A DNA stretch of 64,000 bases from Nanobdellota archaeon (GTDB lineage Archaea; Nanobdellota; Nanobdellia; Pacearchaeales; GW2011-AR1). The notes under the pieces are model-generated. The model did no database searches. It was not told the DNA's origin and saw only the letters and a list, made by a program, of their open reading frames with translations. Position numbers and translations under genes: made by a program. Below, piece after piece: positions 31,781-39,555 of the stretch; position 1 is the first letter of the stretch; every line of letters starts with the position of its first letter. The stretch lies in contig JBBSZK010000007.1 of the NCBI GenBank assembly GCA_038044745.1, forward strand, positions 45,521-109,520. Reading direction: 5' to 3'.

Positions 31781-32672
31781 GTTTTATTTCTTGTCTCTCT
31801 AAATCTTTTACAACTCGTGCGTTTTTGAATATCTTTTTTGCTTCATTTTCGATAAACTTTAAGTTTTGTTCGTATCGTTGTGCTATGTGTGTCAGTATCA
31901 ACTTTTTTGCTTTCGCTCTTTTAGCAATCGTTGCTGCTTGACTTGCGGTCAGGTGTTTGTAGTTTTCCGCATATTCTCTTTCTTTTTCTGCATAGGTTGC
32001 TTCACATACCACAAGGTCGGCGTCTTTCGCAATTTCAATCGCGTTTTGATTAAATTTAGTGTCCATTATAATCGCTATTTTTGTGCCCGGTTGTACATAC
32101 ACGAGGTCTTTCGCTTTTACTTTCTTACCATTTATTACGACGTCTTTTCCTTTTTGAATTTCTCCAAGCAACGGAGTGTTAGGCAACTTTAATTTCTTTA
32201 TTTTTGCTTTATCGAGTCGTCGCCGTTCTTTTATTATAAACGCGAATGCCCATGCGGGGATGCCGTGGTCCATGGGGGCGGCTTCAATTTTCCAATCGTC
32301 TGTCTCGATGTGACAAGGCAGTTCGTGTACGCTTATTTGTATATTAAATTTTCCGTATGTCTGTTGTAGTAGTTCGAGATGCCTCGCAGTACCCTTTGGG
32401 CCGTAAATGTCGAGTCGTCGCGCATATTCTGACATCTCAAGCGTTTCTAATAGCCCTGGAAGACCGAGTACGTGGTCCCCATGTAAGTGGGTAAGCAGAA
32501 TTCTAGTTATTTTGCACGGGTTGAGCCCCGCTTTTTTTATTTGGCGTTGCGTTCCTTCTCCGCAGTCGATTAAGATTCGTTCGGCGTTCCATTCGAGCCA
32601 TATTGCGGGGTGATTGCGTTCTGCTGTAGGGATTGCATTGCTTGTTCCAAGGAAAGTTACCTGAATGTTCAC
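31770..32672 (-). CDS. rnz: ribonuclease Z (tRNA 3' endonuclease)
   Basis: MBL fold with LTHLHGDHVLGLPGLL (HxHxDH). N-terminus FLGTSNAIPT. 300 aa. Confidence 0.9.
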   Translation of the reverse strand: MNIQVTFLGTSNAIPTAERNHPAIWLEWNAERILIDCGEGTQRQIKKAGLNPCKITRILLTHLHGDHVLGLPGLLETLEMSEYARRLDIYGPKGTARHLELLQQTYGKFNIQISVHELPCHIETDDWKIEAAPMDHGIPAWAFAFIIKERRRLDKAKIKKLKLPNTPLLGEIQKGKDVVINGKKVKAKDLVYVQPGTKIAIIMDTKFNQNAIEIAKDADLVVCEATYAEKEREYAENYKHLTASQAATIAKRAKAKKLILTHIAQRYEQNLKFIENEAKKIFKNARVVKDLERQEIKLND

Positions 32673-32711
32673 GACTTCTTTAACTGTTCTTTATTTATAT
32701 AGGTTTAGTGA
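32399..32711. repeat. source copy of a duplicated segment: rnz codons about 44-91 (32399-32541) plus the rnz promoter/TATA (about 32690-32711)
   Basis: Matches 39398-39555 with 2 substitutions, a T7 versus T6 difference and an internal deletion of about 154 bp in the second copy. Confidence 0.85.
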
Positions 32712-33033
32712 ACTTGTTTTTTCTGGTCATATGCCTAAATAGTCTCGTGTTACTAGACATAATGGGTCGAGTGATTTTTTCGTTTGTTGCGTTTTCTTTT
32801 CTAGCTTTCTCGTTGTTTTCTTTTGCGTGCGCCGCGAGTGAGTTCTGTTGCGTGGGTAATGTGCAGATTGTCGGTGTTTGAATATTTTCTGAATGCTTCC
32901 TTTTAGATGAATTCCTTTAGTTTTTATTCTGATTGAGAGGTTCTTGTGCGCTAACTGCGGTTTCCTAAAGGTATTTAAACTTATTTTTCTTTGTGCGTTA
33001 ATGATTAGCGTTATTGTTGAGCATTAATGCACG

Positions 33034-39107: not shown

Positions 39108-39397
39108 TCTTATTGCGTATTTTCTTTGTCGCTATAATCTTTAGATAATTCATTACTTCTTTTTTCGGGGAGAGGCTATTTACTTTTTTGTTTCGATTTT
39201 TCTTATCTGCCTTTTTCTGCGCAGAACCTCGCTTCAGATGGCTTTGAAAATAGTTGATCTGGTGGAAAAGGGCTTGTGTAAGTGCATGGTATCGTTAGGG
39301 GACCTCAAGCATAGTTACGTGATTATCTTATAACGATACGTGTCATTTACGCCTACGTTCTGCCAACGGTTATGTCGATAGACCGATTAATTTGATA

Positions 39398-39555
39398 GGC
39401 CGTAAATGTCGAGTTGTCGCGCATATTCTGACATCTCAAGCGTTTCTAATAGTCCTGGAAGACCGAGTACGTGGTCCCCATGTAAGTGGGTAAGCAGAAT
39501 TCTAGTTATTTTGCACGGGTTGAGCCCCGCTTTTTTATTTATATAGGTTTAGTGA
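39398..39555. repeat. 158-bp duplicated rnz fragment fused to the rnz promoter (pseudo-rnz remnant)
   Basis: 39398 to about 39540 matches 32399-32541 (C>T at two sites, T6 versus T7). About 39534-39555 matches about 32690-32711. The junction lies in the shared TTTATTT microhomology. Confidence 0.85.

What the first reader, a model, noticed from the sequence alone, without database searches (positions are those of the whole stretch)
32399..39555. A 158-bp RNase Z fragment fused to the rnz promoter is duplicated 7 kb away, bracketing the second giant-gene cassette
Positions 39398 to about 39540 copy rnz codons about 44-91, including the HxHxDH region (32399-32541). I saw only two C>T changes and a T7-to-T6 change. 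The copy then jumps, through a shared TTTATTT microhomology, to the rnz TATA/5' region (about 32690-32711 matches about 39534-39555). The about 6.7 kb between the copies holds only an intergenic stretch, the small wHTH gene and the 1959-aa surface protein. The near-identity implies a recent event: a tandem duplication followed by deletion, or recombination-mediated insertion. It also leaves a functional-looking promoter pointing, on the minus strand, antisense into the 3' end of the giant gene. The repeats provide a substrate for cassette loss or amplification.
Basis: seen in the sequence. Interest (0 to 1): 0.65.

Follow-up and report, generated by a model that had tools for sequence, protein, structure and literature searches.

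The report
Recent copy of RNase Z gene start
A 158-base piece of the RNase Z gene and its promoter was recently copied 7 kb away in a groundwater DPANN archaeon, but it is an ordinary DNA-repair scar added long after the giant surface-protein gene arrived, not the mark of that gene's insertion.

Summary
Window 39398-39540 copies rnz codons 44-92 (32399-32542) with two C>T differences and T7>T6. It then joins, through TTTATTT, to a 22-bp copy of the rnz BRE/TATA promoter (32690-32711 = 39534-39555). Self-BLAST gives E = 6e-66, and there are only two copies in the window. Independent assemblies and two Logan runs carry the same structure, so it is not an assembly artefact or a dispersed repeat family.

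But three other relatives (78-93% RNase Z identity) already carry the cassette with the same left junction, so the cassette is old. The copy carries this lineage's own derived states in both the coding part and the promoter part, plus one ancestral residue (Q86) that the live gene has since changed. It was therefore made recently from the organism's own rnz.

The most likely origin is a microhomology-mediated templated insertion, or a 313-bp copy followed by a 154-bp deletion. Recombination between the 144-bp repeats would delete rnz codons 1-43, so it is not a viable route to cassette loss. The orphan promoter could drive antisense RNA, but this is untested. Interest is low.

The parts
31770..32672 (-). 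rnz (RNase Z / tRNase Z), 300 aa, GTG start. This is the intact source gene.
   Evidence: Pfam Lactamase_B_2 2.8e-20 and the tRNase Z domain PF13691. Orthologues are named ribonuclease Z in Nanoarchaeota, Pacearchaeota and Woesearchaeota.
32399..32542 (-). R: the source segment, rnz codons 44-92, including the HLHGDH metal-binding motif.
32543..32689 (-). N: rnz codons 1-43 plus the 17 nt between the TATA box and the start codon. It is present at the source and absent from the copy.
   Evidence: Alignment. It is bounded by TTTATTT at 32536-32542 and 32690-32696.
32690..32711 (-). P: the BRE/TATA promoter of rnz. TATATAAA on the minus strand (32701-32694) is centred about 26 nt upstream of the GTG, which implies a leaderless mRNA.
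   Evidence: Geometry. Other genes of the window have a TATA at the same distance. The element is conserved upstream of rnz in L006, L016, L017, L012, L020 and L021.
32712..33033 (+). Y: the old left flank of the cassette. It contains a 39-aa remnant ORF (32762-32881) of a 472-aa secreted-protein gene, left by an in-frame 1290-bp deletion near 32824.
   Evidence: Alignment with L012, where the gene is intact. Homologues sit next to rnz in L020 and L021.
33034..33231 (+). A small winged-helix (MarR/IclR-like) gene, 65 aa.
   Evidence: Pfam MarR_2 4.4e-6 and HTH_IclR 3.5e-5. It is present in L005, L007 and L012.
33228..39107 (+). Giant surface protein gene, 1959 aa. It has a signal peptide, Ig-like repeats rich in NxS/T, a C-terminal transmembrane segment and a PRC barrel.
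   Evidence: Pfam Big_13 and PRC. Sequence. It is not a paralogue of the first giant gene at 23728-29481.
39108..39397 (+). Z: the spacer downstream of the giant gene. It contains T5-T6 runs (39160-39216, likely terminators) and a promoter-like motif at 39118-39147 that resembles the promoter of the 714-aa gene. It has no rnz homology.
   Evidence: family D11; 4 of 200 shuffles reach the score; T runs; no rnz similarity.
39398..39540 (-). R': the copy of rnz codons 44-92. It carries one ancestral state (T at 39415, giving Q86) and one derived change (T at 39453, synonymous), and T6 instead of T7. It has no start codon in frame.
   Evidence: tblastn matches codons 46-91 at 97.8%.
39534..39555 (-). 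P': the copy of the rnz BRE/TATA, 22/22 identical to P. It overlaps R' in the TTTATTT microhomology (39534-39540).
   Evidence: It carries the window-lineage states, not those of L012.
39556..39625 (+). X: the spacer holding the 714-aa gene's own promoter (GCGCGATAATCTTTATATA, with the TATA at 39597-39604, 22 nt before the ATG).
   Evidence: Conserved in the cassette-less relatives L006, L016 and L017. Geometry.
39626..41770 (+). The 714-aa surface protein gene, the ancestral divergent neighbour of rnz.
   Evidence: Homologues of 46-60% identity lie directly next to rnz in L006, L016, L017/L018 and L019.

Best explanation
R'+P' (39398-39555) is a genuine, recent, non-tandem micro-duplication. 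It is a 158-bp patch copied from this organism's own rnz 5' region, 7 kb away in the same orientation, into the spacer between the giant surface-protein gene and the 714-aa gene.

The giant-gene cassette was already in place long before. It had been inserted into the divergent rnz/714 promoter region in a distant ancestor.

The patch was most likely made by error-prone repair of a break or a stalled fork that used the nearby rnz region as template. There are two routes:
- One step with a template switch at the TTTATTT (or TTT) microhomology.
- A contiguous 313-bp copy (promoter plus 92 codons) that then lost 154 bp by slippage between the two TTTATTT heptamers, plus one T.

The patch is most probably a neutral scar. 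It encodes no protein. In frame there is no start codon, and the GTG at the normal leaderless distance gives only VQNN-stop. It does leave an orphan BRE/TATA that could fire antisense into the 3' end of the giant gene. It also creates direct repeats. Only the 22-bp promoter pair could remove the cassette without destroying rnz.

Shown here: the structure, its reality, the ancestral gene order, the old age of the cassette junction and the young age of the copy. Inferred: the repair mechanism, neutrality and promoter activity.
For: Structure and significance.

Reality: identical architecture in ENA and NCBI contigs, and Logan contigs from two further runs that break exactly at the repeat edge and span R'-P'-X.

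Ancestral order rnz<->714 homologue, with an 80-100 bp spacer holding both TATA elements: L006, L016, L017/L018 and L019.

The cassette is old. L012 (RNase Z 93% identical; 88.8% nucleotide identity across 29814-32826) aligns straight through P into Y. L020 and L021 (78-80%) have the same GGTTTAGTGAnCT junction followed by the 472-aa gene.

The copy is young and comes from this lineage:
- R vs R' is 98.6% identical, whereas window R is 84% identical to L012's R and R' is 80-82% identical to the R of L012, L005 and L007.
- R' has the lineage-specific residues ITRILL. Outgroups have I/L-T-K-I followed by L, F or V.
- P' has TTTATTTATATAGG like the window's P, where L012 has CTGTTTATATAGA.

Independent drift since copying: at 32416 R' keeps the outgroup state (Q86) while live rnz changed to R86, and at 32454 R' changed.

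Sharp edges: there is no further rnz similarity in Z or X.

Local template: the source lies 7 kb away in direct orientation. A random fragment from a roughly 1-Mb genome (my estimate for DPANN archaea) would lie that close about 1-2% of the time.

MMEJ-type repair is experimentally established in archaea (PMC12019639, PMC12281630).

The same locus shows another recent deletion, the 1290-bp in-frame loss in the 472-aa gene.
Against: - The right flank of the cassette could not be recovered for any cassette-bearing relative. So I cannot show directly that L012-type genomes lack an R'.
- The outer junctions show at most 1 nt of microhomology, so the priming step of a template-switch model is not visible in the sequence.
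- T6 instead of T7 needs either an extra slippage or a misaligned 3-nt switch.
- P' sits about 50 nt from the 714 promoter, reminiscent of the ancestral divergent-promoter layout. That could hint at a link with the ancestral junction rather than a random landing site.
- No expression data were available, so neutrality versus function is inferred.
Confidence: 0.62

Rival explanations
1. The repeat is the scar of the cassette's own recent arrival. One route is Campbell-type single crossover of a circular DNA carrying the cassette plus a 313-bp rnz 5' fragment. The other is a 6999-bp tandem duplication later trimmed. Either would give rnz-P-cassette-R-N-P-714, followed by deletion of N.
For: - Cassette-less relatives exist with rnz directly next to the 714 homologue.
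- The repeats do bracket the cassette exactly, with a spacing of 6999 bp.
- A Campbell integration through the 313-bp homology would leave rnz intact and give a promoter-bearing truncated copy at the far end, as is seen.
- P' followed by the 714 promoter resembles the ancestral spacer.
Against: - The P|Y junction and the cassette genes are shared with relatives diverged by 11-20% or more (L012, L020, L021). The cassette's 5' part is 81% identical to L012's, much like the flanking core genes at 85-89%. The cassette did not arrive recently.
- No cassette-less genome closer than 78% RNase Z identity was found.
- The tandem-duplication route needs two further deletions, one of which must end exactly at the original duplication endpoint.
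- No integrase or other mobility gene is present in the cassette.
Confidence: 0.12
2. The duplication is old, made when the cassette was inserted. The two copies have been kept nearly identical by gene conversion between R and R'.
For: - It would reconcile the bracketing geometry with the old cassette.
- A 144-bp tract of identity is long enough for archaeal recombination (my own knowledge).
- The identical stretch (the right 88 nt) and the two differences near the left edge are compatible with a conversion tract.
Against: - P' (22 bp) is also identical to the window's present-day P and differs from L012's P at three positions. Converting R' and P' together across the 154-nt heterology, without restoring N, is unlikely.
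- No decayed rnz sequence flanks the copy.
- A useless fragment would have to survive more than 20% protein divergence in a locus that has lost 1290 bp since the split from L012.
- One difference is an ancestral state kept in R', which shows independent evolution at least recently.
Confidence: 0.1
3. Assembly chimera, or a member of a dispersed repeat or mobile-element family.
For: The data are metagenome-assembled, and repeats are classic sites of misjoins.
Against: - Three assemblies agree, and Logan unitigs from two other runs contain the R'-P'-X junction.
- The copy differs from rnz by two SNPs and has unique flanks on both sides that share no k-mer with rnz.
- There are only two copies in the window.
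- No exact match to the P 22-mer was found in JGI metagenome contigs, and none to a 39-mer of R in IMG/VR.
- There are no terminal inverted repeats and no target-site duplication.
Confidence: 0.03
4. The patch is retained because it is functional. P' would drive a non-coding RNA antisense to the last 1-1.6 kb of the giant surface-protein gene. Alternatively, an rnz-sense decoy RNA would modulate expression.
For: - BRE/TATA is 22/22 identical to a working promoter type with correct geometry.
- No oligo-T terminator lies on the minus strand until about 37896.
- The patch is fixed in all assemblies seen.
Against: - The -14 to -1 region of P' is GC-rich (GCGGGGCTCAACCC) where rnz and the other promoters of the window are AT-rich. 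That should hinder opening (my own knowledge of archaeal promoter-proximal elements).
- There is no conservation evidence, because the patch is known from one population only.
- The two changes since copying include drift within the patch.
- No expression data were available.
Confidence: 0.08

Closest known systems
Microhomology-mediated end joining and template-switch repair products: templated insertions, or microhomology-flanked deletions. MMEJ is shown experimentally in Haloferax volcanii and Saccharolobus islandicus (PMC12281630, PMC5435918, PMC12019639). MMBIR/FoSTeS-type events are described in bacteria and eukaryotes (my own knowledge).
   Same: A short patch was copied from a nearby template in cis. 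It has sharp edges, no transposase signatures and an internal junction that lies in a 7-nt (or 3-nt) microhomology. The result is a non-functional gene fragment.
   Different: The archaeal experiments describe deletions at induced breaks, not 150-bp two-segment templated insertions. The outer junctions here show 1 nt of microhomology at most. The enzymes of this DPANN archaeon are unknown, and the event is inferred from a single end product.
Insertion-duplication by Campbell-type single crossover, as with suicide plasmids or integrative elements that carry a 5' gene fragment (my own knowledge).
   Same: The end product has the same layout. There is an intact gene with its promoter on one side of the inserted DNA, and a promoter-bearing 5' fragment of the same gene in direct orientation on the other side.
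   Different: The inserted DNA is far older than the repeat. There is no integrase or replicon. The second copy also lacks the first 43 codons.
Relic gene fragments and pseudogene remnants beside hypervariable surface-protein islands in streamlined genomes (my own knowledge).
   Same: A non-coding fragment of a housekeeping gene lies in an intergenic spacer next to a fast-evolving giant surface-protein gene. The same locus also holds a deletion remnant of a 472-aa gene.
   Different: This is not a decayed paralogue. It is a fresh, 98.6% identical copy that includes an intact promoter.

Membership tests
Microhomology-mediated templated insertion or deletion (MMEJ / template switching) | The inserted sequence is copied from elsewhere in the same genome, usually nearby. 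| tested here: met
   98.6% identity to the organism's own rnz 7 kb away, in the same orientation. Lineage-specific states are shared.
Microhomology-mediated templated insertion or deletion (MMEJ / template switching) | Junctions lie in short microhomologies. | tested here: inconclusive
   The internal junction lies in TTTATTT (7 nt), or TTT if the T6 is original. The two outer junctions have 0-1 nt of microhomology, and the pre-insertion sequence is unknown.
Microhomology-mediated templated insertion or deletion (MMEJ / template switching) | No transposon hallmarks: no terminal inverted repeats, no target-site duplication, no transposase. | tested here: met
   The repeat finder shows no inverted repeats at the patch ends. 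The flanks are unique. There is no mobility gene in the interval.
Microhomology-mediated templated insertion or deletion (MMEJ / template switching) | Dependence on the MMEJ machinery (Mre11-Rad50, Fen1, PolB or primase, ligase). | not testable with these tools
   This needs genetics or biochemistry. The organism is uncultivated.
Site-specific integrative element with att-site duplication | An integrase or recombinase is encoded within the bracketed DNA. | tested here: not met
   Pfam finds only wHTH, Big_13/PRC and no match for the small ORF. No relative of the giant protein's N-terminal 491 aa was found in IMG/VR.
Site-specific integrative element with att-site duplication | The direct repeats date from the integration event and mark both ends of the element. 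| tested here: not met
   The left junction is shared with relatives of 78-93% RNase Z identity, whereas the repeats differ by 1.4%.
Tandem segmental duplication | Two head-to-tail copies of the whole unit. | tested here: not met
   Only 158 bp of a second unit exist. Self-BLAST finds no second copy of Y, the wHTH gene, the giant gene or Z.
Dispersed repeat family or MITE | Many copies in the genome or in related genomes. | tested here: not met
   Two copies in 64 kb. No exact match in JGI metagenome contigs or in IMG/VR. Relatives carry the sequence only inside rnz. The complete genome was not available.
Archaeal BRE/TATA promoter (for P and P') | A TATA box centred about 26 nt upstream of the start of a leaderless gene, with a BRE just upstream of it. 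| tested here: met
   For P, TATATAAA lies at 32701-32694 and the GTG at 32672. The same spacing is seen for about half of the 21 genes inspected. P' is identical over BRE and TATA.
Archaeal BRE/TATA promoter (for P and P') | Transcription actually starts there. | not testable with these tools
   There are no transcript data. The sequence downstream of the TATA in P' is GC-rich, unlike P.

The most novel reading that the evidence does not exclude
The patch is not neutral. The transplanted rnz promoter P' fires a long antisense RNA across the 3' end of the giant surface-protein gene, tying surface-protein output to the housekeeping rnz promoter. The asymmetric repeats would also act as a one-way device. 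Unequal exchange between R and R' can amplify the 7-kb surface-protein unit, but the reciprocal deletion is lethal because it beheads rnz. Only rare exchange in the 22-bp P/P' pair could remove the cassette.
Probability: 0.07. Interest if true: 0.5.

Novelty: new member of a known kind. Interest (0 to 1): 0.25.

Why it matters
The finding matters little on its own. It is a clean, datable natural example of a microhomology-associated patch duplication in an uncultivated DPANN (Woesearchaeota) genome, a group for which DNA-repair outcomes are otherwise unknown.

It also shows how a surface-protein island can be wrongly dated from a flanking repeat. The comparative data show that the island sits in what was once a compact divergent promoter between rnz and a 714-aa surface-protein gene. 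They also show that the island has been eroding, through a 1290-bp in-frame deletion.

The copy preserves an ancestral rnz residue (Q86). The repeat geometry predicts which rearrangements of the island are viable.

Tried and rejected
- **Right flank in cassette-bearing relatives.** I searched with the 714-aa protein (only 6 homologues, all either the window's own protein or from cassette-less genomes). I searched with the S8 peptidase (the next best hit is 41% identical). A JGI metagenome scan with the 714-aa protein found nothing.
- **Larger decayed duplication.** Z and X show no rnz similarity at the DNA or protein level beyond codons 46-91.
- **Cassette as a duplicate of the first giant-gene region.** BLASTP finds no similarity between the two giant proteins.
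- **Retro-copy made by the DGR reverse transcriptase encoded at about 57 kb.** Rejected. The copy contains the untranscribed BRE/TATA and lacks the mRNA 5' end. The differences are G>A on the gene strand, not changes at adenines.
- **Structured RNA or tRNA in the spacer.** Rfam at gathering thresholds and ARAGORN find nothing between 39108 and 39625.
- **Viral or mobile origin.** No IMG/VR match to R or to the giant protein's N-terminal 491 aa.
- **Promoter scan tool.** The sigma-70 promoter scan was not used because the organism is archaeal. I inspected the upstream regions directly instead.
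Full report
**Observation**

The window is from a DPANN archaeon. The region around the finding encodes TFIIB, ribosomal protein S8e, an LSM protein and a 300-aa RNase Z (rnz, 31770-32672, minus strand). The closest named proteins and genomes are Nanoarchaeota, Pacearchaeota and Woesearchaeota MAGs. The identical sequence occurs in Hainich groundwater assemblies.

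- The repeat finder gives 32399-32537 vs 39398-39536 at 99% identity, spacing 6999 bp.
- Window self-BLASTN gives 144 columns, 2 mismatches and 1 gap, E = 6e-66. Only one other, unrelated repeat in the 64 kb is comparable.
- The alignment shows C>T at 32416 and at 32454, and T7 becoming T6.
- After TTTATTT the copy continues with 22 bp identical to the rnz TATA region (32690-32711 = 39534-39555). That 22-mer occurs exactly twice in the window even with up to 3 mismatches allowed, against 0 expected.
- The copy lacks 155 nt relative to a contiguous rnz 5' region. That is 154 nt between the two TTTATTT heptamers, plus one T.

**Not an artefact and not a repeat family**

An ENA contig from sample ERZ1292629 and an NCBI MAG contig (GCA_964363815.1) carry the same architecture. 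Each has a single SNP (32478 C/T) across 10-22 kb. Two Logan contigs from runs ERR3858116 and ERR3858118 begin exactly at 39507. That is the first 31-mer containing the T6-A junction. They then run through P' into the 714-aa gene at 100% identity.

The copy has two SNPs relative to rnz and unique flanks on both sides. The P 22-mer has no exact match in JGI metagenome contigs, and a 39-mer of R has none in IMG/VR.

**What the promoter piece is**

On the minus strand, TATATAAA (32701-32694) is centred about 26 nt upstream of the rnz GTG. About half of the 21 genes I inspected in the window have a TTTAAATA- or TTTATATA-type box at the same distance from their start codon, which implies leaderless transcripts. 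So P is the rnz BRE/TATA.

P' is identical over BRE and TATA. Downstream of it lies GC-rich rnz coding sequence (GCGGGGCTCAACCC) instead of the AT-rich stretch found at rnz. A GTG occurs at the same spacing but opens only VQNN-stop. The rnz frame of R' has no start codon.

On the minus strand there is no oligo-T run (A5 or longer on the plus strand) until 37896. If P' fires, the RNA would run antisense across the 3' end of the giant gene. Plus-strand T5-T6 runs at 39160-39216 probably terminate the giant gene before R'.

**Ancestral gene order**

In four relatives, rnz is directly divergent from the homologue of the 39626 gene, which is followed by the S8 peptidase as in the window:
- L006: RNase Z 78% identical.
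- L016 and L017/L018: about 71-72% identical.
- L019: about 75% identical.

The rnz-714 spacers are 80-170 bp, and in L006, L016 and L017 (80-100 bp) they hold both TATA elements in the order seen at 39534-39604 (TTTTTATAGGTTT ... GCGATAATnTTTATATA). The wHTH and giant-gene cassette is therefore an insertion into a formerly compact divergent promoter.

**The cassette is old and the copy is young**

L012 (CAYHBQ010000024.1; RNase Z 93%, 88.8% nucleotide identity) aligns without a break from TFIIB through rnz and P into Y. It then carries an intact 472-aa secreted-protein gene, the wHTH gene and the start of the giant gene at 81% identity. The window has an in-frame 1290-bp deletion of the 472-aa gene, leaving a 39-aa remnant at 32762-32881.

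L020 and L021 (RNase Z 78-80%) have the same junction, GGTTTAGTGAnCT, followed by the same secreted-protein gene. L005 and L007 (90%) also have wHTH plus a giant gene next to rnz. So the left junction of the cassette predates divergences of 11-20% or more.

By contrast:
- R and R' differ by 1.4%.
- R' is only 80-82% identical to the rnz of L012, L005 and L007.
- R' carries the window lineage's derived residues (ITRILL).
- P' carries the window's promoter states (TTTATTTATATAGG), where L012 has CTGTTTATATAGA.

Polarising the two differences with outgroups gives one change in each copy. At 32416, R' keeps the ancestral T (Q86, as in L012, L005, L006 and L007) and the live gene has changed to R86. 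At 32454, R' carries the derived T, which is synonymous. No further rnz similarity exists in Z or X.

The coding part and the promoter part were therefore copied together, recently, from this lineage's own rnz. The fact that the repeat brackets the cassette is not a record of the cassette's insertion.

**Mechanism**

What has to be explained is a single 158-bp patch, made of two rnz segments joined in a microhomology, sitting at one site (between 39397 and 39556) in an intergenic spacer. It lies 7 kb from its template and in the same orientation.

The most economical explanation is error-prone repair of a break or collapsed fork that copied from the nearby rnz region. This could happen in either of two ways:
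- One step, with a switch at TTTATTT, or at TTT, which would give T6 directly.
- A 313-bp contiguous copy (promoter plus 92 codons), followed by a 154-bp slippage deletion and loss of one T. Such a copy would express a truncated RNase Z fragment, which could have favoured the deletion (inference).

MMEJ is experimentally documented in archaea (PMC12281630, PMC5435918, PMC12019639). I found no archaeal report of templated insertions of this size.

A random captured fragment is less likely, because a source within 7 kb would be expected only about 1-2% of the time in a roughly 1-Mb genome. Both the genome size and this probability are my inference.

The Campbell-type route requires a recent arrival of the cassette, which the comparative data contradict. 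An old duplication kept similar by gene conversion would have to co-convert the 22-bp P' across a 154-nt heterology. I cannot exclude it, because no relative's right flank could be recovered.

**Consequences**

Crossing-over between R and R' would leave rnz codons 44-300 fused directly to the TATA box, with no start codon and without the first 43 residues. This follows from the geometry. RNase Z is generally required for tRNA 3' processing (my own knowledge). So this route to cassette loss is not viable, whereas the reciprocal unequal exchange would amplify the 6999-bp unit with rnz intact. Exchange within the 22-bp P/P' pair would excise the cassette and R' cleanly and recreate a near-ancestral rnz/714 divergent promoter.

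**Verdict**

This is a recent micro-duplication, a pseudogene fragment with an orphan promoter. It is of a known general kind and probably neutral. Its main value is as a dated repair scar in a DPANN genome and as a caution against dating islands from flanking repeats.

Noticed in passing
window 55635-58000 (VR 56216-56302, RT-16 RNA 56581-56797, TR 56798-56884): This looks like a diversity-generating retroelement. An 87-bp repeat pair has 7 mismatches, and all of them are A in the second copy (TR) against T or G in the first (VR). The VR lies at the 3' end of a 290-aa ORF (55635-56507). An Rfam RT-16 RNA (61.5 bits, above the gathering score) sits between them, and candidate reverse-transcriptase ORFs follow at 56915-57999.
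   Followed up: partly
window 32762-32881; L012 (reverse complement) 8140-9558: The small ORF upstream of the wHTH gene is the remnant of a 472-aa secreted-protein gene that is intact in L012, L020 and L021. The window lineage has an in-frame 1290-bp deletion near 32824 that keeps the signal peptide and the last ~17 residues. The C-terminus of the 472-aa protein resembles the N-terminal domain of the giant protein (FECTAGA..EFCR.DN).
   Followed up: yes
window 39118-39215: Just downstream of the giant gene's stop codon there is a motif, TATTTTCTTTGTCGCTATAATCTTTAGATA. It resembles the promoter of the 714-aa gene (39576-39604). It is followed by a start-less stretch encoding RG plus a hydrophobic run, like the 714 protein's N-terminus (MVEQRGVSILFAIVL). 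This may be an older decayed copy of that gene's 5' end. Support is borderline: 4 of 200 shuffles reach the alignment score.
   Followed up: partly
window 32478: This is the only difference (C vs T) between the window and two other assemblies of the same population across 10-22 kb. It lies inside R, within rnz. R' has C, and the outgroups are split (L012 has C; L005 and L007 have T).
   Followed up: partly
window 19730-19841 (-) and 49895-50049 (-): Rfam finds tRNA matches of 112 and 155 nt that ARAGORN does not report. They are probably intron-containing archaeal tRNA genes.
   Followed up: no
window 23728-29481 and 33228-39107; relatives L005, L007, L012: The two giant surface-protein genes are not detectably related to each other. 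The second evolves much faster than its neighbours. Against L005 the wHTH gene is about 67% identical at the nucleotide level and the giant gene cannot be aligned, whereas the core genes are 83-85% identical.
   Followed up: partly
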